Source: Peribolospora baueri (Eukaryota). Taken from it: a DNA stretch of 54,832 nt. The notes beneath the pieces were generated by a model. The model ran no database searches. It had not been told where the DNA came from and was given only the letters and a program-made list of their open reading frames with translations. This document shows, in pieces, positions 472-41,528 of the stretch. Location: NCBI GenBank assembly GCA_029717555.1, contig JAMDHS010000117.1, forward strand, positions 1 through 54,832, written 5' to 3'. The position numbers were made by a program, and so were the translations under genes. Each line of letters begins with the position of its first letter. Position 1 is the stretch's first letter.

Positions 472-505
<34 letters not shown>

Positions 506-7315: not shown

Positions 7316-7462
7316 CGGTGGGGTGAATGAATGAATGAGAGGGGGAGGTGGTTGTGTGCGAGGTACAGACAGAGTCAACATACGTAGATCGACCTTCACA
7401 TTCGTTTAATTTTTTATATTTTTTCTTCGTCATGTCAACACGGTAGGTACGTACGGTACTGC

Positions 7463-7504
7463 ACGCACCGTACGTACGTACGGACGCACCGTACGTACGT
7501 ACGG
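7463..7504. repeat. 21-bp tandem duplication, each copy holding a perfect 16-bp palindrome CCGTACGTACGTACGG
   Basis: Read directly; palindromes at 7468-7483 and 7489-7504. Confidence 0.9.
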
Positions 7505-13900: not shown

Positions 13901-14863
13901 CTCTTGCCCACCATCTGACGGCTCGGCCAATCTAGTACTCGTTTCGTTGCTCCTGATCGTCGTGTCGTGACCCTGCCTGCCTGCTTTATTACTCGGTCCT
14001 TTGTTCGTTGCCCGCGTGCATCACTCCATTTCGTGCCCCGCTGCTCATCGCCCATGTCATGTCATGTGTGCCAAGAGCGTCCCGTACGGCGCACGTGGGT
14101 CAGCACCCGTCGTGGGATGGGATTGGATGGGATGGGATGGGGATGGTTGGACGAGCGGAGAACGGTGCTGTCGCACAAATTAATCTCCCCGTCGATCCCG
14201 TTTTTCTTTTTTTCGACGTCGACTGGCCGGCCGACCGGCGACTGGCGATGGGGACGGGCCGACGCGCCGACGAAGGCCGACGAAGGCCGACGAAGGCCGA
14301 TGGCCGATCGACGAGGCGAAGGAGGAAGTGATCGACGAGATAGATTAGATGCTCAAACACATTCATTCAAGCCTGTCAGCCAGCCGTGAGCCGTCCGACG
14401 TGATCATCATCATCGTCGTCGTCGTCCATCGTCGCTCATCTCATCCATCTTTCCGCATGGCATGCGATGACAACTCGTCCGTCGCGTGCATCCTCACCTC
14501 ACTCACCTCATCCCATCTCACCCCATCTCATCTCATCTCATCTCCTCGTCCAGCCGTCCGTCCACGCGGGCCAGTCGACTGCTCACGTCATGTCTTGTCT
14601 CGGCGGCAGAAGCGGGGGGGTGGCGGGTAGATAAGGGCAAGATGGAGGACCGCATTCAGCATTCATCTCTGCAAGGCGGGTCACGGCCTCGACCGCATGG
14701 ATCTCTCTTTCTTGCTCTTTCTTGCAAGCCGCTGCCGCGTGGATCACAGACCGACCGACCGACCGGCCGACGGAATAGACACATACATACATAGACATCG
14801 TCGCGGACGAAACCACCATCTCTCCTTCCTCTCTTTCACTCACATCCCCCTCTACCCACCGCC

Positions 14864-17800
14864 ATGTCTACCACAGGTCCCGAATCGGTGCCCACCATAC
14901 TCCTCTTCGGACCTCAGGGCACCGACTTTTCCCCTACCCTCCACTCCCTCCTCGCCTCCCTCGGCCTGCTAGGAGACGACGCCACCGGCTCAGACGTCTC
15001 GTCCGCCGCTCCTTCCTCGCCTCGCCATACCGCTCGCATCTTCCTCCGCCTCGCCCTCGACGCTCTCCGCAGTGAGGCCGTCGCCTCCGCCGCCTACGAC
15101 AACAACGACAACGCCGCCGCCGTCGCCCGTCGTTGGTCCTCCTGGCACACCGTCCTCAACCACCAGGCCCAGTCCGGCTGGCAAGACGCAGCGGTCAACG
15201 GCGCGCTGCTCTGCGCGACCCAGATCGCCGTCGCCATCGTAGGACTCGGGTCCGGCCAGTCAGAGTCTCCTTCGCCGCCCCCGCCCTTGTACGTCGCCGG
15301 CTATTGCACCGGCCTCTTGCCCGCTCTCGCTCTCGCCCTCTCCGGTGTCGGCGTCCGCGCGTGGCATCACACCCGCTCCGACGTCGCTCACCGCCTCCTC
15401 GCCACATCGGTTCAGGCTGTGCGGCTCTGCTTTTGGATCGGATTTCGAGCCGCCAGGGCTCCGGCCACTGCTCTCCCTCCAACGGACGGCGTGGAGGGGG
15501 AGGGGGAGGACGGTGACGACGGTGACGACGGTGACGTCGACGACAGCGTCGAGCTCGACGGCCGCCGACACACGACTTGGACGATCGCAGTGACCGGCTT
15601 GGACGAAGCGCTGGTGCGCCAGCTGCTGGACCGATGGAACGAGCAGACAGTGAGTGAGCCCGTTCAATTCCGCTCCACCCTCCCTCCTCTTCTCACCTCG
15701 CCGCCTCGCTTTTGCTTTTGCCCGCCCGTCTTCAGGAAACGACGGCCTCCCGAGCCCTCTACATCTGCGCCATCACCTCTTCCTCCGAAATCTCCATTTC
15801 CGGTCCTCCGCCCGCCCTCTACGCCTTTCGCACTTGGATAGAGGAGACGAACAAGCGTACGTCCCAGTTGGCGCACTCGCCTAAACCCCGCGTCCGCGCC
15901 TTGCTTCTCAAAATCTTTGCGCCCTACCACACTCGTCTCTACGGCGCTGATGCCGCCTCCGAGCTCGTGATGAAGGACGCCGAGGCAAGAGGCATCCAGT
16001 TGCCCACCGCCACCACCGCCGCCGCCGCCGCGCCCCTCGCCGACGTCTTCTCGACCGTCGACGGACGGCGTCTGGACTTGGTCAACATGACCTCCCACGA
16101 CCTCCTTCGACACGTCCTTCACGCCGTCCTCCTCGAGCCCTGCGCGTGGGACAAGGTGCAGAGCTCGCTCATCCAGTCCATCTCCGCCTTGAACGACCAG
16201 GCGGAGGAGCCCTCCGCCCAGGTTCACGTCCGCGTCCTCGCCGCCGGCTCCTCTCGCGGCCTCGCCGCCCAGCTCGCCGATGCGCTCAGCAAGACGAAGA
16301 CCGGCCTGGGCGAGCTGCACGTTGACGTCGTCGACCTCGCACAGAAGCTTTCTTCTTCTTCCTCCTCTTCCGTCCCGCCCTCGCTTCCGTCCGCCGCCGG
16401 TTCGTGGGACGGCGCGACGGAGGAAGAACCTGGGCCAGACGACATCGCCATCGTTTCCGTCGCTTGTCGTTTTCCCGGCGAAGTCCAATCTCCAGACGCT
16501 CTCAAGGAGACGGTTGATAGCGGCAAGAACACGGCGGTCGAGGTGGGTCTCAAAGGCGCATTGCATCGCATCGCATCCGTCGGCACCGCTCGAATCGTTT
16601 TCTAACCATGCCCCGCCCGCCCGCCGTGTCCTCTCTCTTGCAGTTCCCAAGCTTCCGCTTCGACATGCGGAAATACTTCTCCGATGTCGACGACTCCGTA
16701 CCCCTCCCCCGTCTACACGCCGTCTCGGACATTGACCTCTTCGACCCACGCCTCTTTGGCCTTTCTCCCCGCGAGACTGAACAGATGGACCCGCAGCAGA
16801 GACTCTCCCTTCTTGTCACCCAGGAGGCCCTTGAACGAGCGGGTTACTCGCCGCCGTTCGAACCGGCGGCAGCCCGGTCGGAGTGGAACAAGAAGAGGAT
16901 AGGTTGTTGGTGGGCGGTGGCCAGCGATGAGTACGTTCCCCGCTTGCCCGAATCGTTTCATACCATCCACTGACACCGCCTGTGGCGCCCATATCCTTCC
17001 CCTCCATAGTTATCGCCATGTAAGTCTTCGTCTTCGTACCATCGCTGGCCTCCACAGTGTGAACCCCCGTCTGACCTCATCCGTCGTTCGTTCGCCGACA
17101 GAACGCATCCCACGAGATCGGCCCGTACTTTGTCACCGGCAACATCCGCGCCTTTGTCCCCGGTCATGTCAGCTACCTGTTCGGCTGGGAGGGACCCTCT
17201 ATTTCGGTCGACGCAGGCGACTGCTCCTCCCACGTCGCCATCCACCAGGCCACCGCCGCACTCGCTTCCGGACAGTGCGACGTCGCCCTCGCTGGCGCCG
17301 TCCACGTCGTCACCCAGCCGAGCACCTTTCTCGCCATGCGCGCCGCCAACCCCGCCGCCTTTACGTCCGAGCACGACCAGAGGGGCGAGGGCTGTGGCGT
17401 CCTCGTACTCAAGCGACACTGCGACGCGCTCGCCCACGGTGACAATGTTTTGGCCGTCATCAAAGCCGTAAACGTCGGCTTTGACCCGCGTTCCCGCGAC
17501 GCCGACGACGACGGCCCTCTGGGATTCCACATGGCGAGTGCCGAGGCGCAAGCCGATTCTCTTCGCACCCTCTTCCGTCGTGCCAAGGCGGATCCGGCCC
17601 GCACCGTTTCGGTGTGGCCGACGACGGCCTGCGCGAACTCCTCCTCCTTGCCCGAGTTCGACACGGACTCGCGCGCGGACATGCATCCTTCCGAGCGACA
17701 GGCCCTCCAGGACGCCTTCCGGTCCCGCGCCGCCGACGCCCACGGTGGCGACGCCCCGCGCGTGTCGTCTGTCAACGCCGTTGTCGGAGCGGCTGAGGCT

Positions 17801-20800
17801 GTGAGTAGTACGCTGCTGAGCCAGCCAGCCAGCCAGGTGACCGTCCGAGGCGGCCCGTCTGAATCTCTCGTATCGTCCTCTTCTCTCCTTTCTCGTATCC
17901 TGCTCGCTTCTCAGGCCTTTGGCATGGCTCAGGTCATCAGCGCGGTAATGGACCTTCAACCTCGACGCTCGCGACCCGAGTCGGAGTCGCGAGATGATGG
18001 ACGTTCTTACGCCGTCGTCAACGGCCTTTCGCGGACGGTGAGTTGCTCCCCACTCCCCCTCCCTTGGCGTAACCCGTCTGACCCTTCATTGTCATCGCTC
18101 ATTGGGGCAGGGAACGTACGCCGGCATATTGCTCCAGTCTCCGAGATCGTCGCTCGCCGATGGACAGCAAGCTTTGGCGGTCGTCGGAGAGAGGGCGAAA
18201 CACCTCATCCTCTTGTCCGCAAAGTCCGTCGAGGCCCTGGAGCAGAGGCGCACCAGGCTCGTCGCGTGGCTCGACGAGAGACGGCGCGACGCCGAGCCTA
18301 ATCTTCTGTCCCTCTTGGAGGTGGCCACCTCCGCTTGCGGCGTCCAGCATCGGCCGTTCCGACTGGCCGTCTCTGCGACCTCGCCTGACGACCTCGTTGA
18401 TCACCTCCGCTCGGCCGAGGCGTTCGAGATACCCGCCGAAGAGCCCGACGTCGGATTCTCGCTTGCCGCCAGCGATACGCCTGCCCGCGGCCAGTCCACC
18501 GAGTCTTTCAACCCGCTAGCGGACAGCTTCTGGGCCTCTTTCTACGCCGATCTTCGTGCCGCCCTCTCCGTCGCTCGAGCCCACGTCCCCTTCTTCTCCG
18601 AGAGCCCGACCATATCCCGCTTCTGTCGCCAGTACGCACTCGCCCGTCAGTACGCGCGGCTGGGTCTGCAGCCGACGTGCCTATCGGCAGACGACGCGAT
18701 CGGTTTGTGCGTCTGCTTGCACCTCGCCGGTTCTCTCGGCCTCGCGGAGCTCATGTGCCTGATATACGTCATGAAGGCCGGATCGGCACAAAACCTTCCG
18801 GATGAGCCGGTCACTGTGGCCCAGTTCTTGAATCGCCTTTCTCCCGCCCCGTCGTCCGTGCGCATCATGAGCCGCAGGTCGCGCTTGCTCGTCGACCGTG
18901 ACCAGCGTCTGGACCTGTCCAAGCTCTTCGGGCGACACTCCGATGCAGGAGAGGATCGAGAGCCGACTGGGGTGGAGTGGATTCCCATTCCCGATCCGCA
19001 GACGTCCTCTGGAGGAGGAGAAAAGGTCGCGGCTTCCGACCACGATCTCGTCCTCGATCAGCTTGCATCCCTTTACCGGGTCGGTATCGACATCGATTGG
19101 CTTCGTTGGCACGGTGAGGCAGCCGTCAGGCTGACCAAGCCGATCGTCGCTCGCCTCCCCACCTACCCCTTCCAGCTGTCGAGCTTTTGGATGGCCTATC
19201 GGGACCGCACCAAAACCTCGGCCACCACCGTCGTCGCTGAGCAGTCTTCGGAACCCGACGGCGCAGACGAAGCGGCGGGAACGTCCAAGGTGCCCACCCT
19301 CACCCTCGCCCGGCATCGCACCGCCTGTCCGCTGGTGCCAACCTGTCTCAGTCTCGTCAGAGATCCGCAGGGGCTCTGCGAGGTCCGTTTCGAGCCCGCC
19401 GCGGAGACCGCTCTTTCGGTCAAGGACTTCATATCCGCTTGCTGCCCTGTAGACGATCCAGCGGGGCGAGTCCCGCTGGCTTTCGTGATCGAAGCCATAG
19501 TCGAAGCGATGGTGCACGCTCAGAGGCAGCTTCAAGATTCGCACACGCCGATCGATATGACCGGGCTTCTCGTCCTCGATTGCAAAGGTCTCGATGGCGA
19601 CGGCGAATTGCGAGACCTTTGCCTGTCCGACTGTTGGGACCCTGCAGGCTCACCACCGATGATTAAAGCCGCTTTCGGAAACGGCATCCGCTCCTCTCTG
19701 TCCTTCCTTCCTATACATCCTCACCCGTCCGTGTGGTGGCGCGGTTCTTTGAACGATGCAGGGAAAAGCCAGATGGGCAAGCGGGTCGCTTATCGCGTCT
19801 TGGACGCCTTGGGCTTCTCTTATCCACCAGCGAAGCAGGCGTGAGTGCGAGTGACCCTCTTTTGCCGAGGGACGACGTTCTTCATTCGCTGACCCTTGAT
19901 CACATATCTTCCTGCCAGAATTTCGAACATCTCCGTGACGGACGGAGGCCGCATGCTCGAGGCGAGAGTGGACGTTGCCCTGGGAGCGCCGACCGGGTTC
20001 ACTGTCAGAGGTGTCTCCGTTCTCGATACCATGATCTGTGAGTGCTACCGGTAGCATTGTGGAAAGCAGCGCCCGATTTGTGAAAGTGTATTCATTTCTT
20101 TGCCGTTTCCGTCCTCGTTCTTTTCGTTCAGCCATCGCCTACTGTTCTTGCGCCGCCAAACTGCGTGGCACCACCAAGGTCACCACGATCAGTCAAGTGG
20201 GCAAGATCGCCATCGCACTTGACCGACTTGACGCGGCGAGCGCTAACGGTGGTCTCAGGGTATTTTGCCGCCTCTCGGCCGGCACCGAGTCTGCGTTGAC
20301 GCGTGCGGACCTTGTCCTCATCGATGAAGAGATGCTGGACTACCCCCTCGTCCACCTACAAGATGTCGAGATCGTCGCAGTGGACAAGAAGCCATCGCGT
20401 GCTCGGGCCCCGCCAGCAACTGAGCGACCCTCTAAGCGCGCCGTCCCGGCAAAGGAAGATCGCCCGAAGCCCGCCATGAACGCGGCTGATAGGAAGAATG
20501 AGCAACGGCTTGCCGAGCTTCACGACGTCATCATGGACGAGATGGGCGTGGAGAAAGACAAAGTGGGCCCGGATGCCAACCTGTTGGATCTTGGTTTGGA
20601 TTCTCTGATGTCTCTCTCGATTCTCAGCAGAGCTCGCGAGCAGTTTGACAATGTCGACTTCCCGAGTGACCTCTTCCAAGAGTGTCCCACCCTTCGGAAG
20701 ATTGACGCTTGGGTGCGACAAGCGACTGGGACGGCTTCAACTACAGCCCAAGATGAGCTCGTCGCCCCTGCAGATACCGTGTCGCAGACTGCTTCAGAAA

Positions 20801-22014
20801 CGCTGGTCGCACCTAGCACTGGATCGCCTCAGGCTTCTTCCGCCTTCCGGTCGCTTCTTTCGATTCTTAGCGAAGAGCTCGGCGTACCTGAGGATGAGCT
20901 CAAACACCAGGTCGACCTTGCGGACCTGGGTGTCGACTCTCTCATGAGCATCGTCGTTCTCGGCACGCTCCGAGAAGCGCACTCGATTGATTTGCCGTCC
21001 GATCTGTTCATCAACTATCCGCGGCTAGTCGATGTCGAGGGCTACCTGAACGGAATGTTTGAGGAACAGCCCACGGTTGCCCCGAGTCAACCCACGGCGC
21101 CTGCGCCCCTACAGTCCCTCAACGGCCATGGCACGCAAGTCGAATCGTCGATGGAGCCGTCGACTCCGCTTATGCTCCAGAAAGGTCCGCCTGATTCCAC
21201 TACGTCTCTCTTCATCTTCCCTGATGGCAGCGGATCACCAGCGGTCTACGCCGGATTGCCGCCCTTGGGCATGGCTGTCTGGGGATTGAGCAACCCCTTC
21301 GTCAACGACCCTGCGGCTTGGAAAGGGGGTGTCGAAGAGCTCGCATCGCTCTACTGGCGGAGCATCCAGATGGTCAAACCGAAGGGACGAGTCCTTTTCG
21401 GAGGTGAGCGGCCGGCCATCTTTGCTGCATTTCCATTCCTCATGCCGATCTGACGTTTCCATCATCCTTACTCCTCTGGATGGATAGGCTGGTCGTTCGG
21501 CGGCGTCGTCGCATACGAGACGTGCAGGCAGCTCTGCGCTTCGGGCGGGGGCGAATTTGTCGTCGATACCCTCATCTTGTTCGACTCGCCTAGTCCGGCG
21601 CGCTATCCGCCCTTGCCGCCGTCCTGCACCGACTGGATCTTCAAGTCTGGCTCTTTCCGAGGCATGGCCTCGCGGAGACTGACGCCTCAGATGGAGGCGC
21701 TGTTCGGAAGCACGCTCGACAACCTGGAGCGCTACGAGTGCAAGGCCCCGCGGCTATCGGTCCAGCGCGTCGTTCTGATCACTGCCGCGGATGGTGTTGG
21801 TGGGTCACTGAGCGATGTAGAGGGCGCCAATTCGACTGTCGAGTGGATGATGCGGTCTCGAAAAGGGCTCGGGCTGGATGGTTGGGAGCCGCTCTTGTCT
21901 TCGGTTCCAGAGACCGCACTGTCTGTCCACGAAGTCGACGGGGCAAACCATTTCTCCATGTGGAAAGAGCCACATGTTCGGCGCATTGGCGATATACTCT
22001 CTGAGACTCTGTAG
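14864..22014 (+). CDS. PKS-B: non-reducing PKS-like protein, SAT-KS0-AT0-PT0-ACP-ACP-TE (about 10 exons)
   Basis: SAT GYCTG (15299-15313) and APYH. KS-like IAIVSVACRFPG and MDPQQRL, but DAGDCSS replaces DTACSSS, no HGTGT, and VGAAEA replaces xGHxE. The AT region lacks GHSxG. ACP motifs GLDSL (20593-20607) and GVDSL (20929-20943). TE motifs FPDGSGS, G|GWSFGG (spliced), DSP and NHFSM. The frame stays open across canonical introns (15650-15735, 16543-16643, 16931-17009, 17020-17101, ~17801-17914, ~18038-18110, 19841-19918, 20038-20131, 21404-21487). Confidence 0.9.
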
Positions 22015-22232
22015 CTCGACCTTCGATTTCACTCTGTGGCTCGACCTTTCTTTTGACTCTGTAGCTCGACCTTTGATTTGGCTCTGTGGCTCGATCTTTC
22101 ATTTCACTCTGTGGCTCGACCTTTGATTTGGCTCTGTGTCTCGACCTTTCTTTAGACTCTGTAGCTCGACCTTTGATTTTTGGCTCTGTGGTTCGACCTC
22201 TCATTGGACTCTATAGCTCGATCTCTCTCATT
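22006..22232. repeat. Minisatellite, about 9 copies of a 25-bp unit (consensus RCTCTGTRGCTCGACCTTT(G/C)(A/T)TTT(G/C))
   Basis: Units start at 22006, 22031, 22056, 22081, 22106, 22131, 22156, 22183 and 22208; the first contains the PKS-B stop codon. Confidence 0.93.
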
Positions 22233-22455
22233 GTGAACTCGGTAACTCAATCTTGCATCTATCTGCACAGTGTGCACATTGTGACGGTCAACAGAATTGG
22301 ACTTTGGGTTCAAGACCGTCGGTGTCCAAAGACCTTCGTTCGTCGTTGGCCTTACAGGAACTTTTGAACTGCAGTCTCCTCGAGTTCTCCTTTTCCACCG
22401 TCCTGGTTCCAAGCTAATTCATGTTGATGTCCACCTATGACTTCTTCCCATCGTC

Positions 22456-22638
22456 CTCAGTGGACACTTCACTGCCGTTCGAGCCCAGAGAGTGAAGATT
22501 AAATTCGTGATAGTTTCGAAAGGAAGTACACATCATTGTCGTCATCTCGTGATCATGAAAGGTAGTAGCACGTCAACGTTCATGTCTTCTTCTTGTTCTC
22601 AGTGACCACCTCACTGCCGTTCGAGCCCAGACAGTGAA
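22456..22638. repeat. 41-bp imperfect direct repeat (22456-22496 and 22598-22638)
   Basis: CTCAGTGgaCACtTCACTGCCGTTCGAGCCCAGAgAGTGAA versus CTCAGTGacCACcTCACTGCCGTTCGAGCCCAGAcAGTGAA. Confidence 0.88.
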
Positions 22639-22693
22639 TGAAAATAAACCGGCGATCATCATAAAAAAGAGAAAGGGAACCCACGACCCCCGA

Positions 22694-25600
22694 TCACGCA
22701 CACAAGACCTCTGCCACTCGCCGAACAGCCGGCTTCTTCATGAGCGAGAAGTGGTCGGCGTCGACGGCAATCCGACGGACGACAAAGTCGGACTCGAGTT
22801 CCTCGTCGCCAGAACGGAAGAGCTTCTGCCACGCTTCGAGCGAACGCAGGCTCACCGGAAGATCCGCGCCATGACCGACACGGCGGGTCGCCTCGATGAT
22901 GACAACTTGCATCGCGATCCGGTCCGTCTTCGCCGCCGAACGCGTCGACCCGGTGAGCAAAGACCTCGGGCGCAAAGGCTTGGAGATGTGATCCCTCAAG
23001 GCCTGGGCGCAAAAGATAAAGTGCCGTTTCTGGTAAGCCGGGATGTCTCGGTTGTTGAAAAAGTGTTGGAATATGTCTCTCGGCGCTCGCCGTCCCGGGA
23101 GCAGCGCGGGCGGAGGCGAGTCGATGATGTACAGCGCCTCGACCGTCTCGCCCATCTCGGTCAGCAGGCGGCAGACCTCCAACGCCATGAGGCCACCGGC
23201 GCTCCATCCGCCGAGACGATAGGGACCCCTCGGCTCCTGCGCTAGAATCTGGTCGAGGTAGCTGAATGCGGCTTGCGATACGCCCTCGGCCCATCTTTCC
23301 GGCTCCTCAAGGAAAGGGCTGTCGAGAGCGTAAACGCGTGCCGCTCCCAAGTCGAACTCGGCCAACTCGTTGAGCGCTCCAGCCGAGCCACTCCCATCGG
23401 CAAGGAGAAACAGCGGCGCTCGGCCGACATCGGACCGGAGGCTGCTGCTTCGACGGAGCGACACGAGGCTTGGGCGGCGGTCCTTCACGTGCGACTCGCC
23501 ACAGGGCGACACCGTCTGGGTGTTGTGGAGTCGCTGGTCGAGTTCTGGGCCAAGCTTGTAAAACGTTGGCGGCAAGGCGTTCTGGCAGTTCCGCGGGCTG
23601 GAGGGGTCAGAACCCACGACTGTGGTAGTTGGACTGCTCGTCGCCTCATTGCTGCTGTCGTCAGCCTTTGTGAACGCCGACTTGGACTGAGCTCCCGTGA
23701 TCCTAGGCGAGGGGAAGAGCGCCCTGAAGACGGTTTCTTTCATCCTGCGGAACTGGACGCCCTCCATCATGCCCACCAAGTCGCCCGTCCCCGCCTCGAA
23801 AAAGTAGGCGTCGCCGCACACAACGCCTCCGTTTGAGCCGGGCAAGGGGTACATGGCGCAATACGCATGCAGGGGCACCCCAGGTCCCTTCCTTGTCGTT
23901 GCCGCGCTGATCTTCTCAACGTCGAACCGCACGCTCGCCAGTCCGTTCGCGATGTAGACCTCACCCTGCCCAGCAAGGCTGACGTTGGGGATGAAGCCCG
24001 ACAGCTGTCCAAGCGAGTCCTGTATCACCGGGTTAACGACAAAGTCGCCGGCGGGTGCCTCCAGGGACAGGCGAACGTCCGACACGGCCTCATGGCCGTT
24101 TTCCGAAAAGTAGACGGACTGCATGCCTTGGTAGAAGCGTTCGTAGGTGACGACACTCTCGAAGAGCTCGTAGCCCAGGTCGGCCTTGATCACATCGTCG
24201 GACCGTTCACGAAGAATTTCGGCACGGGTGGTGACGAGCGGCCGCATGTGCTTCCAGAGGTCGTCCAACGATCGCCGGCCGCCGGCCTCCTGAGGGACGA
24301 CAACGCAAGTGCCGTGCTCGCGCTCGTGGAAACGCCCATCCTGGTCTGTCCCACGGCTGGCGAGGCTGATGACGAGCCCAGATCCATCTTTGGCGAGACT
24401 TCCCTTGGCGGTGACGATGATGACTTGGTCACCGTTCTGGTCGTCATGTCGAGTCAAGGGGTGCGAAATGGCGACGTCCTTGACCTCAAACGCCGGGCAC
24501 GTACCGTCGTCATCCTTCCCGCCGTCCTGCAGGTAGTTGGCCACCTCGAAAGCGAGCTCGGAGACCATCGTTGCAGGGAGGAGGCCCGCACCGCCGACCT
24601 TGTGGCCCATGATGATTTCCTTGCACGGCGAGCGGTTAGTCTTAGTCTCGAACGTCGCCTCTACAAGGTCTCCGGTCCGGGACGCGCACAGGCATACGTC
24701 CAAGAGACTGCCTCGGGGCCGTGGGAGATGCTGAGCCGGCTGGGGGTCATCCTTCCGAGCGCTGTCGGAGGACGCAAGGTGGTCTCTCAGATTCCTATCT
24801 GCGTATTCGATCCAATAGGCCGCGTCACTCCCTTTCACGTCGAAGGGATACGTCGGTACGCCAGCCAAAAGGTGTCGGGGTTTAGAGCCGAAGTCCTCGT
24901 ACACCCGCCCCCAATCGAGGTCCGCGCCGTGCAAGTAGGCGGCGCCGAGCAGGTCGAGGACGGACCGCGAAGGGTCGACGCCTTTTCGCAGACATGGAGT
25001 GCACGTCGGAGTGAACGAGGAGGAAGAGTCCTTCGAGATGTTACCGGTACCCTTCTTGAGCGTCTCGACGACCATGGGAGCGAGGAGGGCCGTCGGTCCC
25101 ACTTCCAACCACATTGCGTCTGGCCCTGCAAGTCTGAGCAAGTTGCTCACGCCCGGCTCGAATGCCACTGTTTCGGCCGACTGGCGAACGAGATAGTCCG
25201 CGTCAATGACGCCGTCCTCGAGCCCCACGACCTTCCCACCGACGTTTGCCGCCACGGGAAGGTTCGGCGGCCTGAACTTGACCGTTCGGACCACCTCCGA
25301 AAAGGGCTCGAGCATGGGATGCACCGCGCTAGAGTGGAACCCGAACGGGACTGGAAGGACGGTGGCGCGACGGGGGCCTTGAGCGTTGGTCGTCGACGCG
25401 TTCTTGACATAGTCCGCCAGCCGACGAACGTCGTCGATGGGTCCGCTGACGACCGTGTCCTTCGGGCTGTTCACGCATGCCACCTGGCAAACGTCCTCGC
25501 ACTTGGCCTCCGTTAGGAGCATACGGACGACTTCTTGTCCAGCGTCCAGGGCAACCATACCAGTCTCGCCCGGTCGGCAGAGCTGAGCGGCCAGCCTGGC

Positions 25601-28600
25601 TTTGCTACCAACGAGCCGAAGCGCGCTCTCCAGGCTCATGACACCTGCCACGAACAGTGCGGCGTACTCTCCCAGGCTGTGGCCGATCACTGCCGAGGGC
25701 TGCATTCCCCAGCGTTTCAGTAAGCCGAAAAGAGACGCCTGGACGGAAAAAATGGCCAGCTGCTCTTGCTCCGGCGAGGGCGAAATTGCCTTGCCACCGT
25801 TCGCTGCATCCTCACCATGAAAGAAGGAGAGGAACGGCTCAAAGCCCCAAGCGACTGCGAGACGATGGCAGTGCTTGAGGTGACATCTAAAGGGCTTGCA
25901 GACGCGGAAGAGCGTCTTGGTGGAAGCTTGAAAGGGAGAGCCACCTTGACCGGAGAATACCCACACCGAGCGTGGAGACGTAGGACTGATCGCCGGAGCT
26001 CGGGGCGGGTCTCCAGGCTCGAGGAACTTCCGCAAGTCATTCATGTCATTCACGACCGCCGCGGCACGGTATAGCTGGCGGCGATGGGTCCGCCCAGCCG
26101 TGGCGACATAGCAGAATTCTCGAAGCCTTGCCGCCTCTGCGCCTGTCCCTTCTTCGCCTCCCCGTGCAAGGAAGGCGGAGTAACGACGCCGGAGCTCGGA
26201 GAGAGCAGTCGGAGTGCCGGCGGACAAAGCGATGACCACTGGCCGAGACCGCTTTCCATCGCCGCCGGACGTGTGAACGACGGAGACGGGTCTCTTCGCT
26301 TGAGGCGCGTCTCGCAGGACCAGACACGTATTACCGCCAGCAGCGCTGAAGTTGGCGACGTAGACAGTGCGTGGTCCTTCCGTCCGACGCGGGAACGGCG
26401 CGCCTCCCGGAGGAGCGAGGCTGAGACCGTCGAGAGAAGGCAACTGCGGGTTCATGGTGGTGGAAATGCCGATATGAACGGGCACAGACTCTCGCTCGAG
26501 CATAAGCAATGCCTTGACGAGCGCGATGGCACCGGAAGCTGACTCGGAGTGTCCCACGTTCGCCTTGACAGAGCCGATGACGAGAGAGGTGGGCAACGCG
26601 GCGGCTTGTGGTCTGAGCGCATTCTTGACGGCGGTGAGTTCGACCTTGTCGCCAGCCTGCGTGCCCGTGCCGTGACATTCCGCAACGTCCACCTGCTCCG
26701 GACGAAGGCCGCACTCGCTCACTATGCTGGTGCAGAGTTCCGCTTGGGTTCGGGCATCGGGGTGCGTTATACTGACGCTGTTGCCCGAGTGGTTGGTAGC
26801 CGCCGCGGTGATGACACCCAGAATGCGGTCCCCGTCACGTGAAGCGTCGGACAAACGCTTGAGGAGCACGAAGCCGATGGCATCTGCACGCGAGTAGCCG
26901 TCGGCGGTGCGATCCATAAACTTGCACTGGCCGGTGGGCGACAGGAAAAAGCCCCTGTCCAAGCCGACGAATATCTGAGGCTGGGTCAAGACATTGACGC
27001 CGCCGGCGAGCGCCGCCGTACATTCTCTGCGCGCTATGGACCTGCAAGCAGACTCGATAGCGACGAGCGAGGAGGAGCAGGCGGTGTCGAGGGTGATGGA
27101 AGGGCCCGTCAAGCCGAAGAAGTCGCTGATGCGGTTGGAGATGAGCGGTCGATGGGTGCCGAGGAAGTGATAGGGATGCATCTTTTCAGGCCTCTCGCCG
27201 TCACGGCCGCCATGCTCCTGATAGTCGTCGCTCGACACACCCACGAAGCAGCCGATCTGGTGCCCTCTCGTTTCAGGGACATAAGCGGCATATTCAAAGG
27301 CCTCGTGAGCACACATGAGCGCCAGACGCTGTTGAGGGTCCATCTGACGCACGGTCTCCCGGTCGGCGATGCCGAAGACGTGCCTGTCGAACGTCTTGAC
27401 CTGCGACTCGGAAAAGGCGTTCATGGTATGGGCGCGCATCGAGTTGCGCTCCCGACGACCCTTCGCGTCGGTGCGCCAATAGTCATGCACGTCGAACAGA
27501 TGGGGAGGGATCTGCGAAGACAGCAAGAAGACTGGGATTAAGAACCGGGTCGGCGACAGGCCGCGGGGAAATTCTTCACCGTACGTACCTCTGTGCACAT
27601 GTTGCGGCCGCGTTCGAGGAGCGCCCAGGCTTCGTCCAAATCGTCAGCACCGGGGACTCTGCAGCTCATGCCAATAACGGCGACCTGCTCGTTTTCCGAT
27701 TGGCCGAGGCAGGACAGCGTGGGAGGCCGGGGGGTGCCGATCGAGGGCGCATCAACGCGAACGTCGAGGAGGGATGGCTTGCCTCCAATCTGAACCCAAG
27801 CGCTCCGAACGGCGTCCAACATGCGTTCATCTTCCTCGGTGGATGCGAGAGAAGGGAGGATGGTGACGGAGGCGGGTGCACCGGCCTCGGTCCGCGCTCT
27901 GAGGTCGGCTAAAGCGTTCGAAAGGTCGCGCTTGTCATCTGGCGTCGACGAAAGGAGCACATCGGATAGACCGACGTCTGCATGAGTCTGAAGAGCGTCC
28001 AGGAACGCTTGACGGCCGTCAGGGTTGATGCGGTCGACGGCTGACAACGGTGTTCGACGAGGTGGGCGGAAAGGTGCCGCAGGTGATGAGCGTGAGGGGG
28101 AATCAAGGAGGAGGGAGCGATGAAGCTCGTCGATCGATGCGGTTGGCCCCGCAAAGAGGTAGGAACCATCGTTCAACGTTCTGACGAGACGGACGGACGA
28201 GGCAACCGTAGGAGGCTGTGAAGGGTGCCAGATCATCAGCGGCGAGCTAACAGTCAGTGTAGGAAGATTGGTGGGCACGCACGAAAGTGTCAGACATGTC
28301 TTGAGTGGAGACGCTGACGAAAGCTATGAGACCTTGGACGTCGTTAGACGCCGTCTTTTGACGGAGATGTCGAAGCAGCGCCCGCTCTGCCCGAACCGAG
28401 GTTTTGATAGCTTGGACCGCCGAGTCGAGTAGTTGGTCCATCGACTGATCGGCATGGAGGACGGACGCGTAGATCGTGGCGAAACCGAGAGCCAAAGTTC
28501 GAGGCCGAGCGCCGGCGGAAGCGGCAAGGACGACGGTGGCCAGTTGAAGGAGACATTCTGTGGAGAGGTAAAGCCGGTGCGAATGACCGCCCCACGACGG

Positions 28601-28885
28601 GGAGCAATCGCTGCCTCGCAAGAGCACTGCCTCGAGATGGCCAATCTGTTGCAAGAAAGCGAGGTTGAGCTCATCTTCGGCGTCATCCTCGTCGGCCACG
28701 CACTTCGCCGCCCCCACCGTCTCTTGACGGAGAGCATGAAGAGCTCGGAGGAGAAAGGAGTGCAAGATGGAGTTGCATCGAGAGGCATTGGACAGGTGTG
28801 AGAGTCGTTCGTCCAAGCGAGTTAGAAGCGCCGGAACATGGTCGCTTGAAGGCGGAAAGAGAAAAAGAGGCGACGGGGAAAACAT
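22694..28885 (-). CDS. PKS-A: non-reducing PKS, SAT0-KS-AT-PT-TE with no ACP (exons 28885-28283, 28215-27589, 27511-22694)
   Basis: KS triad DTACSSS, ECHGTGTQAGD and NVGHSE; AT motifs FSGQG, GHSLGEY and FGFHS; PT dyad GHKV and QDSLGQ; TE motifs LADGSGS, GWSAGG, DSP and DHFSLM. No GxDSL motif between PT and TE, and no GxCxG in the N-terminal SAT-sized region. Confidence 0.93.
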
Positions 28886-29100
28886 GGTGGGTGGAGAATG
28901 GGGAACGAGAGAGAAAACAGCGATGAGGGGACGAGGACGGCAGTTTAAAGGAGATACGGGCACGGGTGGAAGTGTGAGTGAACACCGCCTCGCTTGTGCA
29001 GTTGCCGAGATCGAAGGCACGAGTGAGGGAAGGAACGGAGCGATAGGAACGTCCGTCTAGGTTGTCAACCCTCCCGTCATGCTTGCCCCACGTAAAACGG

Positions 29101-29107
29101 TGACTCA
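29101..29107. promoter_or_regulatory. TGACTCA (Gcn4/AP-1-type bZIP consensus) about 215 bp upstream of the PKS-A start
   Basis: Exact heptamer match only; a single site can arise by chance. Confidence 0.25.
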
Positions 29108-31717
29108 GGGCCGCCACTTCGTTCTCGTTGGTCGGGTGAACGTGTCTTGGATTAGCATGAGGCATGAATGGATGGACGCTCGGCTCGGCCCGGTCAAATC
29201 CGACCCCGGTTAGAACCACGTCGACCACGTCATACGTTCGTCTCACGCTGCATCCTATGCCTGTAAGCCCCCCGCGGATAACCACCTGGCCTTTTAAATT
29301 CACCCTCCTTACTCCGAGCCTCCTACACGCCGGGGCCGTAGGAGAGGATCGCCGCATTTGCTCGACACGGGAGATCCCCTTGAAGGTGCGATTCCGACTC
29401 GAGCCGATAACGACAGTGCCGAGGCGAACAGAGGAGTGCGATGCGATGCCAGAGGGTGATTCCGTGGGGATCTATAAGATGCCGATAGCGATGCCTGGAG
29501 GATGCGATGCCGATGCGCAATCTACTTCAGATAAAGTGGCATAGAGACTCGGATATAGAGACATACCCACTGGACAGCCGCCGTGGATGCGCGGACAAGA
29601 GATGGCTGGCCAAGCGGTCCAGTCCAGTCCGACGTTGCGCGCCCTTTCAACGGGAAGCCGGCGACTACATGCGGTATGCGTCCTAGTTCCCAAGACCAAT
29701 TTCACGTACGTGTCATCCATAGGTCGAGTCCCTGAAGCAGATGTAGCCGGCCGCCGCCGCCCTGACCTCTTCGAGGTGCGCGCCAGACGCATGCGCCATG
29801 CCGACGACGGATGATGACCGCCGGCCCAGACCGGGTCTTGCTTTGTTCGCCAATCGCTGAGCGCTCCGTGAGACTTGCGATTCAGGTCCAAACCACGTTC
29901 AACAGGCAGAGCGATGGCTGCCGAGAGCGCTGTGGCTCGAACGAGCTAAAGAAATTTGGGAGCTCGGCTTCGTGAACAACCGACCATGCGATCCTCCGTG
30001 CCCGCCATCGCGAGCCTTGCAGGGCGACGAGTAGGTCGCTCACTCACCCATCTTCTCGGCAGTGCCTTGGCTGTGGCGGGTTAACAGGACTCAAGAGGAA
30101 CATGTCGTAAATATCCAGGTCCTCCAGCCACGGACCGATGGCCCCTCTGGCCACGTACGTTGAGTTGGGGGGTCGAGCTGACAGCGATACTGATCCTGAC
30201 CCTGATTCTGATTCTGAATGGTTGCTTGCGCGCAACGATGCCGACCGATCTCGCCTCCTCCACGTGGCGTCAGATCCGATCGCTGCGGCGCGCGCGCGAG
30301 TAATTTTCCGCGCTCGGCAGGCAGAGCTGCCGGTCCACGCTCTCGGTCCACTTTTCCGCATGCGGATTTGGTTACGACCACCGTCGTGCGATGGACAACT
30401 TCTCATCAGGCTTCTCCATCTTGGCGCCGCTCGCTCGCCCAGGACCGCGTGGGCCAGTTGTACTCCGACGGCGGGTTCTTTTTGTGCCAGCAGTTCAACG
30501 AACGCGAGAACAAGTGTTGCGAAAAGCAGCGTCTAGAGGCGCTGCTAGAGGGTACGTAAGCGTTTGCTCACACTTGGGAGTTGCAAACCTGTAACGGTCA
30601 TTGCCGACGGAGCAGACAACATAGGAAAGACGAATTCCTTTTAGATTCCAAAGTTGCGGAACGACGACGTGGGCATTTATATACGTATCGTCGGAGGTTG
30701 AAACGGATATCTTCACATGGAGACAAGGCTCTTGTGGACAAATGAGCGTCGGGCCGCCACCGTGCAACTGTTGCGCGACCAGAGAAAATGCAAGCTCGGG
30801 CAGCAATACGGAGGCCGCTTCCTGAGCAAAACCGTTCGCGAGCTGACGTACATGAACCATGAAGAGTCACGATAAGGACGGCAGCAGTGAAGGTGTGTAG
30901 GCATGCGTAACAACGTAGCGACGAGCGACGACCTGAGGCTGCGCATGCGAACTCGAACTCGTGTCGACGTACTCGCCCTAGCCACGAGGCAGAAGACGGG
31001 GTGGTACCGTTCGTCATAATGCCAAGAGTGTCCCCACATAGGGTTCTCTCCGTCCTCCAGTGCTTGACGACACGTGCGAGATACGAAAGAGATAGCCGCA
31101 TGGCGGTAACGAGGTATTAATCGGTCGTGCCATGACATGGCTGGTGCCGCTGCCCAAGTCCGTGAGTGTTCACCGGCCGCCTACAAACGCTGTCGAGGAC
31201 GGAGGGAAGGCAGCTCTGCTCCCTTGGAGCCTCGCTTCCGCGCATCATTGGACAGGTCGAATCGCCGGCCGCCCGACCAACTATTAAGCCATGGTCAGCA
31301 CCATCCGTGACCATTCCGACACAGCCCCCCGCGGGCATGAATGCGCTTGCTCAGCATGGCAGAGTAAACCACATCTACCTTCTGCAAAGCCCTCTCTTTC
31401 GCTAAGGACGTTGTCGTCCTCGCCAGCGCCGGTTGTCACCCGCGAGCGATATTCCAACTTTAGAGGCATTACGGGGTCTTGCTCGTCGCCTTGAGCAGTC
31501 AGGTGAGGACGCTGGCAGCGAGCGAATCGCTGGCCATGCCAGACTCGCTCGCCTCCACGAGCCCAAACCAGTCGCCTCCTCCGAGCCTTGCGCGCCTTCG
31601 CATCCTTGCACCCTTGCTCAAATTCTGCGCCGCCGCGTTGATCTTTCACGTCCACGATGTCGCCCGCATCGCAAGTCGTGTGGTAGGGATGACCCAAGTC
31701 TCGGCGCGCTGCGGCCG

Positions 31718-41438: not shown

Positions 41439-41528
41439 GCCCCCCGTGAAGTACATACGGGGCCCTCCACATCAACCCTCTTCCTTCCTTCTCCCGCTCC
41501 TCATTCAACGCTACCTATTCCGTGAACC

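What the first reader, a model, noticed from the sequence alone, without database searches (positions are those of the whole stretch)
14864..28885. Convergent pair of reciprocally defective non-reducing PKSs that together form one complete synthase
Seen: PKS-B (+) has SAT motifs (GYCTG, APYH), two ACPs with intact DSL serines and a TE, but lacks the KS triad, the AT GHSxG and the PT His. PKS-A (-) has intact KS, AT, PT and TE motifs but no ACP and no SAT GxCxG. Every function missing from one is present in the other. Both frames are long and uninterrupted, and the stops are about 680 bp apart. Established: fungal NR-PKSs such as PksA and wA normally carry SAT-KS-AT-PT-ACP-TE on one chain and need an ACP. 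Inference: duplication followed by subfunctionalisation gave an obligate two-chain aromatic polyketide synthase, possibly for a melanin-precursor naphthalene or an anthraquinone. I recall multi-PKS loci from smut fungi such as Ustilago maydis, so novelty must be checked.
Basis: partly seen in the sequence, partly recalled or inferred. Interest (0 to 1): 0.93.

Follow-up and report, generated by a model that had tools for sequence, protein, structure and literature searches.

The report
Split two-protein fungal polyketide synthase
Two neighbouring fungal genes each encode only half of the working parts of an aromatic polyketide synthase, a split design already described for pigment genes of the corn smut fungus, so this is a new example of a known kind rather than a new kind.

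Summary
The motif-level observation is correct. PKS-A (minus strand, 28885-22694) has intact KS, AT, PT and TE residues but no ACP and no SAT cysteine. PKS-B (plus strand, 14864-22014) has an intact SAT, two ACPs and a TE, but a dead KS (Cys to Asp, His to Ala), a dead AT and a dead PT. The stops are 679 bp apart. One detail is wrong: the frames are not uninterrupted. PKS-B has 8 exons, including a 10-nt micro-exon, and PKS-A has 3.

Both genes look functional. All splice sites are canonical. The listed indels against a roughly 2% diverged relative are in frame within exons. Each gene belongs to a protein family conserved across Ustilaginomycotina.

The PKS-A family contains Ustilago maydis UMAG_06418 (pks2). 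The PKS-B family is presumably pks1. The two genes have consecutive accessions in Tilletia horrida.

Split two-chain NR-PKSs are already in print. Pks3 plus Pks4 make orsellinic acid only together (2019 preprint). In 2026 pks1/pks2 were proposed to form one complete synthase.

Verdict: real, most likely an obligate two-subunit synthase, and a new member of a known kind. A and B are ancient paralogues, not a recent duplication. The product is unknown.

The parts
14864..22014 (+). PKS-B gene. It has 8 exons: 14864-15649, 15736-16542, 16644-16930, 17010-17019, 17102-18037, 18111-19840, 20055-21403 (acceptor 20069 is also possible) and 21488-22014. The protein is 2143 aa with the layout SAT, dead KS, dead AT, dead PT, ACP, ACP, TE.
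   Evidence: The frame-restoring GT..AG introns have donors GTGAGT, GTGGGT, GTACGT, GTAAGT, GTGAGT, GTGAGT and GTGAGC. The spliced ORF has a single terminal stop. Junctions align without gaps to family members.
17010..17019 (+). 10-nt micro-exon of PKS-B
   Evidence: It is flanked by GTACGT..ATAG and GTAAGT..ACAG. Including it yields ASDDYRHNAS, which matches the family motif S-DDYRENAS. Leaving it out gives a 2-residue gap and needs a poor donor, GTTCCC.
14864..15939 (+). PKS-B SAT domain (Cys148 codon 15305-15307, His327 codon 15928-15930). Intron 1 lies at 15650-15735.
   Evidence: Pfam SAT matches the two pieces at E 6e-19 and 9.7e-06. GxCxG and YH are invariant in the 8-row B-family alignment.
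16444..18119 (+). PKS-B pseudo-KS (KS0). Asp670 (17219-17221) replaces the catalytic Cys and Ala860 (17789-17791) replaces the second His.
   Evidence: Pfam finds only the ketoacyl-synt N-terminal domain. This region is one of the three best conserved in the B family (0.39).
18120..20418 (+). PKS-B KS-AT linker, pseudo-AT (Ala1138, 18696-18698, in place of Ser) and pseudo-PT
   Evidence: Pfam finds no Acyl_transf_1 or PS-DH hit. phmmer finds weak AT-region homology. A low-confidence AF2 model (pLDDT 52.5) matches CTB1 SAT-KS-MAT 8cg6 at E 3e-10. The PT dyad is lost.
20461..21042 (+). Two ACP domains of PKS-B (Ser1702 at 20602-20604, Ser1814 at 20938-20940)
   Evidence: Pfam PP-binding matches at E 2e-28 in 2 stretches. 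These are the only ACP-like sequences in the whole window by tblastn.
21151..22011 (+). PKS-B TE domain (Ser1971, Asp2001, His2123)
   Evidence: It aligns to PksA TE 3ILS at E 1.8e-08 with all three triad positions matched.
22015..22693 (.). Intergenic spacer of 679 bp between the convergent stop codons
   Evidence: The relative (organism B) carries non-triplet deletions here, of 1 and 8 nt.
22694..28885 (-). PKS-A gene. It has 3 exons: 28885-28283, 28215-27589 and 27511-22694. The protein is 2015 aa with the layout pseudo-SAT, KS, AT, PT, TE and no ACP.
   Evidence: The two introns are GTGCGT..ACAG (67 nt) and GTACGT..GCAG (77 nt). The spliced ORF has one terminal stop. Pfam finds KS N and C, Acyl_transf_1 and Thioesterase at significant scores, weak PS-DH and PKS_DH_N matches below cutoff, and no PP-binding.
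27685..28885 (-). PKS-A N-terminal pseudo-SAT region (no GxCxG)
   Evidence: Pfam finds no SAT hit. An hhalign comparison of the A-family N-termini with the B-family SAT gives probability 94.2 and E 1.1e-07 over 126 columns.
24842..27684 (-). PKS-A KS (Cys555 at 27077-27079, His690, His731) and AT (Ser1022 at 25676-25678, His1136)
   Evidence: These residues are invariant in the 12-row A-family alignment.
23762..24754 (-). PKS-A PT domain (His1380 at 24602-24604, Asp1575 at 24017-24019)
   Evidence: It aligns to the PksA PT structures 3HRQ and 3HRR at E 2.5e-07, with GH.V.G and D...GF matched.
23432..23761 (-). PT-TE linker of PKS-A, where an ACP would normally sit
   Evidence: It has no DSL motif. 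An hhalign comparison of the A-family linker with B-family ACPs gives probability 0.1. tblastn finds no ACP.
22697..23431 (-). PKS-A TE domain (Ser1847, Asp1874, His1997)
   Evidence: It aligns to PksA TE 3ILS at E 2.6e-18. The Ser and Asp lie in the significant stretch. The His (DADHFSL vs GANHFTL) lies in a short low-scoring third stretch.

Best explanation
The locus encodes an obligate two-subunit non-reducing polyketide synthase. It is of the type represented in Ustilago maydis by the spore-pigment genes pks2 (UMAG_06418, the A type) and, presumably, pks1 (UMAG_06414, the B type).

Inferred mechanism:
- PKS-B supplies starter loading (SAT Cys148/His327) and the only two phosphopantetheine carriers (ACP Ser1702 and Ser1814).
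- PKS-A supplies malonyl transfer (AT), chain extension (KS) and ring closure (PT).
- One or both TE domains release the product.
- The dead but well conserved KS-like domain of PKS-B most likely keeps the canonical KS dimer contact. It would pair with the live KS of PKS-A and so hold the ACPs within reach of PKS-A's active sites.

Shown here: domain and residue content, intact gene structure, family membership of A, conservation, and linkage. Inferred: that the chains bind, that neither works alone, and that the product is a small aromatic polyketide feeding a melanin-like pigment.
For: 1. Residue-level complementarity is documented. The only ACP-like sequence in the 54.8-kb window lies in PKS-B.

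2. Both genes are intact. The 7 and 2 introns all have GT..AG ends, and a 10-nt micro-exon restores a family motif.

3. There is constraint against a roughly 2% diverged relative whose contig spans the whole pair (297 substitutions over 14781-29199). Every listed indel inside PKS-B exons is a multiple of 3: -12, +6, +3, +6, and -1/-2 two bases apart. The listed non-triplet indels lie upstream of the ATG, in intron 3 or in the spacer. In exon 1, 17 of the 33 listed substitutions are synonymous.

4. Family conservation is complementary. The A family (12 rows) keeps the KS Cys/His/His, AT Ser/His, PT His/Asp and TE Ser invariant. The B family (8 rows) keeps the SAT GxCxG and YH invariant. It lacks Acyl_transf_1 in 5 of 5 members scanned but has SAT, PP-binding and TE in 5 of 5. 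At the KS Cys position it has Asp or Glu in 6 of 6 Ustilaginomycotina members, the window included.

5. Of 14 named Ustilaginomycotina proteins among the 120 listed PKS-A hits, 13 lack PP-binding.

6. The A family contains UMAG_06418. It is in the same 90% cluster as hit P0044. It has KS-AT-PS-DH-TE with no PP-binding and is 33% identical to PKS-A over 1711 columns.

7. The genes are linked elsewhere. The T. horrida A-like and B-like proteins have consecutive accessions in 3 assemblies. The Testicularia pair is 5 accessions apart on one 678-kb scaffold.

8. [quoted passage not shown]

9. The KS contact is supported by a model. The T. horrida A-like KS (residues 395-835) was folded with the B-like KS0 (400-860). 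The score was 0.93 and the best of 3 controls was 0.00. That mark was reached by 51 of 78 solved complexes and 2 of 108 mismatched pairs. The runs agree in at least 83% of contacts and the partner's pLDDT is at least 83. KS homodimers are solved, so this pass may come from likeness. It does not distinguish a heterodimer from homodimers.

10. The predicted interface positions are more conserved than the rest of KS0: 0.55 against 0.43, permutation p 0.0066. KS0 is one of the three best conserved parts of the B family, at 0.39, with TE at 0.41 and ACP1 at 0.36.
Against: - There is no product, no protein interaction data and no knockout for this organism.
- PKS-B sits on a very long branch (1.73 against a median of 0.32). 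It is more decayed than its relatives: it has no Ketoacyl-synt_C Pfam hit, whereas 5 of 5 relatives have one. Some relaxation of constraint is therefore possible.
- The substitution and indel tables were cut (263 substitutions and 15 indels not shown). The constraint test therefore covers exon 1 and the listed indels only.
- Identity of the B family with UMAG_06414 is inferred, not tested, because the sequence was not obtainable.
- PMC13208730 says Moesziomyces antarcticus has only a pks2 homologue in the cluster. The M. antarcticus protein I found is B-like, and no A-like protein from that species was among the 120 listed hits.
- Both chains keep a full TE, so the division of labour is not strictly reciprocal.
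Confidence: 0.75

Rival explanations
1. The two chains cooperate without a stable KS/KS0 heterodimer. Each forms its own homodimer, and the ACPs of PKS-B visit PKS-A in trans, as in trans-AT systems.
For: The authors of the Pks3/Pks4 preprint themselves first compared the system to trans-AT PKSs. The complex prediction cannot distinguish a heterodimer from homodimers, because any two KS domains resemble solved KS dimers.
Against: The dead KS0 is conserved about as well as the TE and ACP1 in the B family. Its predicted dimer face is more conserved than the rest of the domain. That is expected if the contact matters, although a B homodimer would explain it equally well.
Confidence: 0.3
2. PKS-B is a decaying relic, and PKS-A either uses another carrier protein or is itself inactive.
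For: PKS-B has a long branch and lacks a Ketoacyl-synt_C hit. Its AT and PT regions are as poorly conserved as linkers, at 0.19.
Against: The ORF is intact across 8 exons, including a micro-exon. Listed exon indels are in frame only. Exon 1 shows an excess of synonymous changes. The SAT dyad, both ACP serines and the TE triad are intact. The family is conserved with the same architecture. No other ACP lies in the window.
Confidence: 0.05
3. The pair is the counterpart of the U. maydis orsellinic-acid pair Pks3/Pks4, not of pks1/pks2.
For: The architecture described for Pks3 (otherwise like other orsellinic-acid PKSs, but lacking an AT) and for Pks4 (text says only that neither has all of KS, AT and ACP, so Pks4's missing domain is deduced to be the ACP) is the same.
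Against: UMAG_06418 (pks2) falls in the A family. PMC13208730 reports no pks3-5 homologues in 15 other Ustilaginaceae, whereas pks1/pks2 are widespread, as the A and B families are here. None of the tailoring genes of the pks3-5 cluster (P450, vbs1-like and others) lie in the window.
Confidence: 0.1

Closest known systems
Ustilago maydis pks1 (UMAG_06414) / pks2 (UMAG_06418), teliospore melanisation PKS genes
   Same: PKS-A and UMAG_06418 share the ACP-less KS-AT-PT-TE layout with a motif-less N-terminus. They are 33% identical over 1711 columns. The two genes are linked. The 2026 survey suggests that the two form one complete synthase.
   Different: In the window the genes are directly adjacent and convergent, as the consecutive accessions suggest for T. 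horrida. In U. maydis the locus tags are four apart, and in Testicularia the accessions are five apart. No laccase or other pigment gene was seen nearby. Sequence identity is low. The B = pks1 equation was not tested.
Ustilago maydis Pks3 (UMAG_04105) + Pks4 (UMAG_04097), orsellinic acid / triacetic acid lactone synthase
   Same: This is the only such pair with biochemical evidence. Each gene is necessary and the two together are sufficient. Neither has all of KS, AT and ACP.
   Different: That pair sits in a 45-kb subtelomeric cluster with pks5, cyp4, vbs1 and a regulator, and is reported only from U. maydis. Homology to the window pair was not tested. The preprint text I read mentions only a missing AT in Pks3, not a dead KS.
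Canonical fungal NR-PKS (PksA, CTB1, wA): SAT-KS-AT-PT-ACP-TE on one chain
   Same: All six domain types are recognisably present in both chains, either live or as remnants. The exception is the ACP of PKS-A, of which no trace remains. The catalytic residues align to the PksA PT and TE structures.
   Different: The live copies are distributed over two polypeptides.
Type II PKS ketosynthase / chain-length factor (KS-alpha/KS-beta) heterodimer
   Same: A live KS would be paired with a KS-like partner that has lost the catalytic Cys (recalled knowledge; the heterodimer here is only modelled).
   Different: The chain-length factor carries Gln at the Cys position (recalled). Here the residue is Asp or Glu, and both His are lost as well, so a decarboxylase role is unlikely. 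The proteins here are multidomain type I.
Fungal fatty acid synthase alpha/beta subunits and bacterial trans-AT PKSs
   Same: Catalytic domains of one assembly line are split between polypeptides. The authors of the Pks3/Pks4 preprint drew both analogies.
   Different: These systems are unrelated in architecture. Their subunits carry no reciprocal dead copies of each other's domains.

Membership tests
Fungal non-reducing PKS (single-chain SAT-KS-AT-PT-ACP-TE) | KS Cys-His-His triad | tested here: met
   PKS-A has Cys555, His690 and His731. PKS-B does not meet this: Asp670, no HGTGT, Ala860.
Fungal non-reducing PKS (single-chain SAT-KS-AT-PT-ACP-TE) | ACP with a DSL serine on the same chain as the KS and AT | tested here: not met
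   PKS-A has no PP-binding domain, no tblastn ACP hit and no remnant by hhalign. PKS-B has two ACPs but no live KS or AT.
Fungal non-reducing PKS (single-chain SAT-KS-AT-PT-ACP-TE) | PT His/Asp dyad | tested here: met
   PKS-A His1380 and Asp1575 align to 3HRQ. Both are lost in PKS-B.
pks2 (UMAG_06418) family, ACP-less KS-AT-PT-TE subunit | Full-length homology and the same domain layout as UMAG_06418 | tested here: met
   PKS-A is 33% identical over 1711 columns. In the KS tree PKS-A sits in a 14-row clade at 99/97 with the A family. That clade includes S. reilianum P0012, which is 71% identical to UMAG_06418. PKS-A's position inside that clade is unresolved, and two non-A-type synthases (T. 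maclaganii P0080, which has an ACP, and Geranomyces P0104, with no PP-binding or TE listed) sit there too.
pks1 (UMAG_06414) family, presumed SAT-KS0-AT0-ACP-ACP-TE subunit | Homology to UMAG_06414 itself | not testable with these tools
   The sequence could not be fetched. The link is inferred from the Testicularia accessions PWY98388 (B-like) and PWY98393 (A-like), which mirror the spacing of 06414 and 06418, and from the 2026 paper's text.
B family defined here (Thecaphora, Tilletia, Violaceomyces, Moesziomyces, Testicularia) | SAT GxCxG kept, KS Cys replaced by Asp or Glu, AT Ser lost, two ACPs and a TE | tested here: met
   PKS-B nests in this clade at 97/95. The motifs are, and the Pfam results.
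Two-subunit PKS (functional definition: neither chain active alone, both together active) | Product formed only by co-expression | not testable with these tools
   This is shown only for U. maydis Pks3 and Pks4 in the literature.
Two-subunit PKS (functional definition) | Physical association of the chains | tested here: inconclusive
   The KS/KS0 model of the T. horrida pair scores 0.93 against a best control of 0.00. The pass may reflect likeness to solved KS homodimers, and the proteins are not the window's own.
Type II KS/CLF heterodimer | Discrete single-domain KS-alpha and KS-beta proteins, with Gln at the KS-beta Cys position | tested here: not met
   Both proteins here are about 2000-aa multidomain chains, and the residue is Asp or Glu. 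The resemblance is one of working principle only.

The most novel reading that the evidence does not exclude
The dead KS of the B subunit is not a relic. It would be a chain-length-factor-like partner that forms an obligate heterodimer with the live KS of the A subunit. It carries a conserved acidic residue (Asp or Glu) in place of the catalytic Cys.

That would make this an iterative type I PKS built on a KS/pseudo-KS heterodimer. The arrangement would be conserved since before the split of the Ustilaginomycotina classes. Redundant domains in the B subunit would still be decaying lineage by lineage: the PT dyad is kept in the Tilletia, Thecaphora and Violaceomyces B-likes, and lost in Moesziomyces, Testicularia and this window.
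Probability: 0.4. Interest if true: 0.6.

Novelty: new member of a known kind. Interest (0 to 1): 0.3.

Why it matters
This locus matters mainly as corroboration and extension. It shows that the split NR-PKS design described in U. maydis is an old, conserved two-gene unit, found well beyond the Ustilaginaceae.

Here the unit is reduced to its bare form: two convergent genes among housekeeping genes. Complementarity is complete at the residue level, apart from the duplicated TE.

For PKS enzymology, the families defined here give a natural series in which to study two questions. One is how a megasynthase tolerates being split. The other is which pseudo-domains are kept as scaffold (KS0) and which decay (AT0, PT0).

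It does not open a new category. It does not settle the product or the chemistry of smut spore pigment.

Tried and rejected
- **RNA evidence.** No RNA holder was listed for window 14800-24799. Splicing and expression therefore rest on sequence alone.
- **Whole genome.** None is held. Other PKS, PPTase or laccase genes of this organism could not be sought.
- **Word-indexed search with the AT0/PT0 piece, longer proteins.** Nothing reached E 0.001 or better.
- **Word-indexed search with the KS0 exon, longer proteins.** It was capped at 2000 aa and dominated by bacterial PKSs. Only T. horrida P0132 was relevant. The exhaustive phmmer search was what found the B family.
- **First splice model for intron 3.** The donor GTTCCC was rejected in favour of the micro-exon model.
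- **Full dN/dS against the relative.** Not possible, because one search lists only 40 of 303 substitutions and 12 of 27 indels.
- **AEM 2021 version of the Pks3/Pks4 paper.** Not held, either by DOI or by PMC id. Only the 2019 preprint was read. The word 'heterodimers' for Pks3/Pks4 is taken from the review PMC10098057.
- **Supplement of PMC13208730.** It held no usable text, so the published pks1/pks2 orthologue tables could not be compared with my families.
- **Literature searches for earlier residue-level descriptions.** looked for a dead KS in smut PKSs or a split NR-PKS elsewhere. They found nothing beyond the papers cited.
- **Tailoring genes beside the pair.** No Pfam hit came from the 52 ORF segments of at least 90 aa at 13.2-14.9 kb and 28.7-36.9 kb. 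Short exons could have been missed.
- **AF2 model of PKS-B exon 6.** Confidence is low (mean pLDDT 52.5). Only its confident linker and AT core supports the fold match. The PT part is uninterpretable.
- **Earlier scan notes.** Nothing was found for this window or genome.
Full report
**What is there**

The window is GC-rich, about 0.58-0.65, and its genes carry short GT-AG introns, so it is fungal. Between 14864 and 28885 lie two convergent megasynthase genes.

PKS-A (minus strand) has three exons: 28885-28283, 28215-27589 and 27511-22694. The introns are 67 and 77 nt with GTGCGT and GTACGT donors. The protein is 2015 aa.

Its coding sequence jumps between all three frames. Frame-restoring introns with consensus donors were found for five junctions. 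The sixth junction at first needed a poor donor and left a two-residue gap against relatives.

Reading the DNA there showed a 10-nt micro-exon at 17010-17019, flanked by GTACGT..ATAG and GTAAGT..ACAG. Including it gives ASDDYRHNAS, which matches the family motif. The final model has 8 exons and encodes 2143 aa with one terminal stop. The stop codons of the two genes are 679 bp apart.

**Domain and residue check**

Pfam results:
- PKS-A has ketoacyl-synt N and C, Acyl_transf_1 and Thioesterase, plus weak PS-DH and PKS_DH_N matches below the curated cutoff. It has no PP-binding and no SAT.
- PKS-B has SAT, ketoacyl-synt N only, the KS-AT linker, two PP-binding stretches and Thioesterase. It has no Ketoacyl-synt_C, no Acyl_transf_1 and no PS-DH.

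Alignments to canonical NR-PKSs and to solved PksA domains give the residues.

PKS-A:
- KS: Cys555, His690, His731.
- AT: Ser1022, His1136.
- PT: His1380, Asp1575.
- TE: Ser1847, Asp1874, His1997.
- No GxCxG motif.

PKS-B:
- SAT: Cys148, His327.
- KS: Asp670 where the Cys should be (a Cys follows one residue later), no HGTGT motif, Ala860 for the second His.
- AT: Ala1138 for the Ser, and no AT His.
- PT: no dyad.
- ACP: Ser1702 and Ser1814.
- TE: Ser1971, Asp2001, His2123.

A tblastn search of the whole window with 11 ACP probes finds ACP-like sequence only at 20455-21075.

Two remnant tests show that both chains descend from full-length NR-PKSs. The A-family N-terminus is homologous to the B-family SAT (hhalign probability 94.2, E 1.1e-07, 126 columns), so it is a pseudo-SAT. 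The A-family PT-TE linker has no trace of an ACP (probability 0.1).

The region of PKS-B where AT should be gives a low-confidence AF2 model (mean pLDDT 52.5). Its confident core matches the linker and MAT part of CTB1 (8cg6, E 3e-10) and PksA (8cg4). That fits an AT-derived pseudo-domain.

**Are the genes alive?**

Two DNA runs of a close relative ('organism B') each hold a contig spanning 14781-29199, so the convergent pair is conserved there. The X3 contig has 297 substitutions and 125 gap letters; the X4 contig has 295 and 135.

Ten of the listed indel rows belong to that relative:
- Those inside PKS-B exons are -12, +6, +3, +6, and a -1/-2 pair two bases apart (net -3).
- The non-triplet ones lie upstream of the ATG (14815), in intron 3 (16942) and in the spacer (22489, 22491).
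- Fifteen further indels were not shown.

Of the 33 listed substitutions in PKS-B exon 1, 17 are synonymous and 16 are not. By the textbook figure about three quarters of random changes would be non-synonymous (not computed here). This is moderate purifying selection on the least conserved catalytic domain. The remaining 263 substitutions were not shown.

**Relatives**

The word-indexed search with the long PKS-A exon listed 120 proteins. Fourteen of them are named Ustilaginomycotina proteins. They come from Tilletia horrida, Violaceomyces, Tilletiaria, Pseudozyma flocculosa, Ustilago loliicola, Sporisorium reilianum, U. bromivora, U. trichophora (two), Melanopsichium, Testicularia, Kalmanozyma, P. 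hubeiensis and T. maclaganii.

Thirteen of the 14 lack PP-binding. The exception is T. maclaganii P0080. Identities to PKS-A are only 32-37%.

PKS-B relatives were not found by the word index. The exhaustive phmmer search with the AT0/PT0 exon gave 88 hits. The best are Thecaphora frezii P0241 (E 2.6e-18), T. horrida P0243, Moesziomyces antarcticus P0248 and Violaceomyces P0291, named. Testicularia P0250 was named. P0241 aligns to PKS-B over its full length, at 27% over 2197 columns.

These B-likes share the same peculiar pattern:
- The SAT GxCxG and YH are invariant.
- The KS Cys is replaced by Asp (window, T. horrida, Thecaphora) or Glu (Violaceomyces, Moesziomyces, Testicularia).
- The first His is replaced by Ser and the second by Ala.
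- The AT Ser is lost, and Acyl_transf_1 is absent in 5 of 5.
- All have ACP and TE.

The A family (12 rows) keeps all KS, AT and PT residues and the TE Ser and His invariant, and the TE Asp nearly so.

Within the B family, KS0 (0.39), TE (0.41) and ACP1 (0.36) are the best conserved parts. AT0 and PT0 (0.19 each) are no better than linkers.

The PT dyad is still present in the T. horrida, Thecaphora and Violaceomyces B-likes. It is lost in Moesziomyces, Testicularia and the window. Decay of the redundant PT is therefore lineage-specific.

**Link to named genes**

The 90% cluster of hit P0044 contains UMAG_06418 of U. maydis. The 2026 survey PMC13208730 calls this gene pks2.

UMAG_06418 has KS-AT-PS-DH-TE and no PP-binding. 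It has no GxCxG, and it is 33% identical to PKS-A over 1711 columns. It is 71% identical to the S. reilianum A-like protein.

Linkage evidence:
- The T. horrida A-like and B-like proteins have consecutive GenBank accessions in three assemblies: KAK0552225/6, KAK0546028/9 and KAK0563429/8.
- In Testicularia they are PWY98393 and PWY98388 on one 678-kb scaffold. This mirrors UMAG_06418 and UMAG_06414.

I therefore read the B family as pks1. I could not fetch UMAG_06414 to test this.

One inconsistency remains. The survey says M. antarcticus has only a pks2 homologue in the cluster. The M. antarcticus protein I found is B-like, and no A-like protein from that species was in the list.

**What is already in print**

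- The 2019 preprint on the U. maydis melanin cluster (abstract, sections 5 and 8, and discussion passages read) shows three things. Deleting pks3 or pks4 abolishes all products. Only co-expression of both gives orsellinic acid. Neither protein has all of KS, AT and ACP. The authors speak of a split-PKS system.
- A 2023 review says Pks3 and Pks4 work as heterodimers (passages and section 4.4 read).
- The 2026 survey (section 3.6 and passages read) reports three things. pks3-5 are confined to U. maydis. pks1/pks2 are near each other and found in most of the 15 other Ustilaginaceae. [quoted passage not shown]
- pks1, pks2 and lac1 are cited as needed for teliospore melanisation. The source is Islamovic 2015, which I did not read. 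It is cited.

My searches found no residue-level description of the dead KS. The AEM version and the survey's supplement could not be read and may contain it.

**Evolution**

I built a KS tree of 36 rows and 448 columns.
- PKS-B falls inside the B clade at 97/95 support.
- That clade sits with T. horrida P0132 and Botryobasidium P0256 at 98/99.
- PKS-A falls in a 14-row clade (99/97). The clade holds the 11 other A-likes, the ACP-bearing T. maclaganii P0080 and a chytrid (Geranomyces) synthase.
- The A group, the B group and the ascomycete NR-PKSs form an unresolved trichotomy.

Forcing all A-likes and B-likes into one clade costs 21.7 log-likelihood units (p-AU 0.011). The group was named after seeing the tree, and long branches are present. 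The two chains are therefore old paralogues that each lost complementary functions. They are not the products of a local duplication.

**How it most likely works**

The following is inference. PKS-B loads the starter through its SAT onto its own ACPs. PKS-A's AT malonylates those ACPs, its KS extends the chain and its PT cyclises it. A TE then releases the product.

The conserved dead KS0 is the obvious candidate for holding the two chains together. A model of the T. horrida A-like KS with the B-like KS0 scored 0.93, against 0.00 for the best of 3 controls. That mark was reached by 51 of 78 solved complexes and 2 of 108 mismatched pairs. The runs agree in at least 83% of contacts, and the partner's pLDDT is at least 83.

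The modelled interface is the canonical KS dimer face next to the active-site strand. KS homodimers are solved, so the pass may be from likeness. It does not show a preference for the heterodimer over homodimers. The proteins are also not the window's own.

The modelled interface positions are more conserved than the rest of the domain in both families. The A family shows 0.75 against 0.62 (p 0.0002) and the B family 0.55 against 0.43 (p 0.0066).

**Surroundings**

The pair is flanked by housekeeping genes: mitochondrial DNA polymerase, a cyclic-nucleotide phosphodiesterase, CDC20, a ferritin-like protein, Nup98-96 and a syntaxin. No Pfam domain was found in 52 ORF segments next to the pair. 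In this organism the pair therefore stands alone, without the tailoring genes seen in the pks3-5 cluster.

**Verdict**

The feature is real and the two-chain reading is the best explanation (confidence 0.75). It belongs to a kind already described in U. maydis, both experimentally (Pks3/Pks4) and by proposal (pks1/pks2).

This analysis adds six things:
- the exact gene models;
- the residue-level finding that the B subunit's KS is dead, with a conserved acidic replacement;
- the extent of both families across Ustilaginomycotina;
- the conserved linkage;
- the lineage-specific decay of the B subunit's PT;
- the finding that A and B are ancient paralogues.

Noticed in passing
window 17010-17019 (+): PKS-B contains a 10-nt micro-exon between two introns of 79 and 82 nt. 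Automatic gene callers would probably miss it and either shift the frame or drop two conserved residues.
   Followed up: yes
window about 15260-15560 (+), PKS-B exon 1: There is an acidic Gly/Asp-rich low-complexity insert inside the SAT domain. Four in-frame indels (-12, +6, +3, +6) separate the window from the roughly 2% diverged relative in this stretch.
   Followed up: partly
window 15261-16122 and 18134-18392: The run that may be the window's own source (X1) holds extra short contigs at single-copy depth. They match parts of PKS-B with 4-17 differences and odd joints: skips of 105, 205 and 135 nt, one joint going back from 18392 to 15112, and a +1/-2 indel pair. They may be a partial diverged copy or repeat elsewhere in that genome, or assembly-graph debris.
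   Followed up: no
proteins P0256 (Botryobasidium botryosum) and P0132 (Tilletia horrida, 1757 aa): Two intermediate forms sit next to the B clade. The Agaricomycete protein keeps the KS Cys but has Tyr for the second His and has lost the AT Ser. The second T. horrida protein has Asp for the KS Cys and Asn for the second His. It keeps an intact AT (GHSLG) and has no ACP or TE by Pfam.
   Followed up: partly
B-family alignment, PT region: The PT His/Asp dyad of the B subunit is kept in T. horrida, Thecaphora and Violaceomyces. It is lost in Moesziomyces, Testicularia and the window. Those three species would therefore have two live PT domains per synthase.
   Followed up: partly
window 150-13421 and 36877-53542: The flanking genes are housekeeping. 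They are mitochondrial DNA polymerase gamma (150-4790, minus), a cyclic-nucleotide phosphodiesterase (8816-13421, plus, at least two frames), CDC20/Fizzy (36877-37719), a ferritin-like protein (41526-42194), Nup98-96 (46152-51119) and a syntaxin-like protein (52754-53542).
   Followed up: partly
window 32068-34123 (+): Two long overlapping open frames (379 and 331 aa) have no Pfam match. They lie in a stretch with strongly negative GC and AT skew, so this is probably an unannotatable gene with an intron or a disordered protein.
   Followed up: no
literature: PMC13208730 states that M. antarcticus carries only a pks2 homologue in the cluster. The M. antarcticus protein retrieved here (P0248) has the B-type (presumed pks1) layout. 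The published pks1/pks2 orthologue assignment may need checking against domain content.
   Followed up: no
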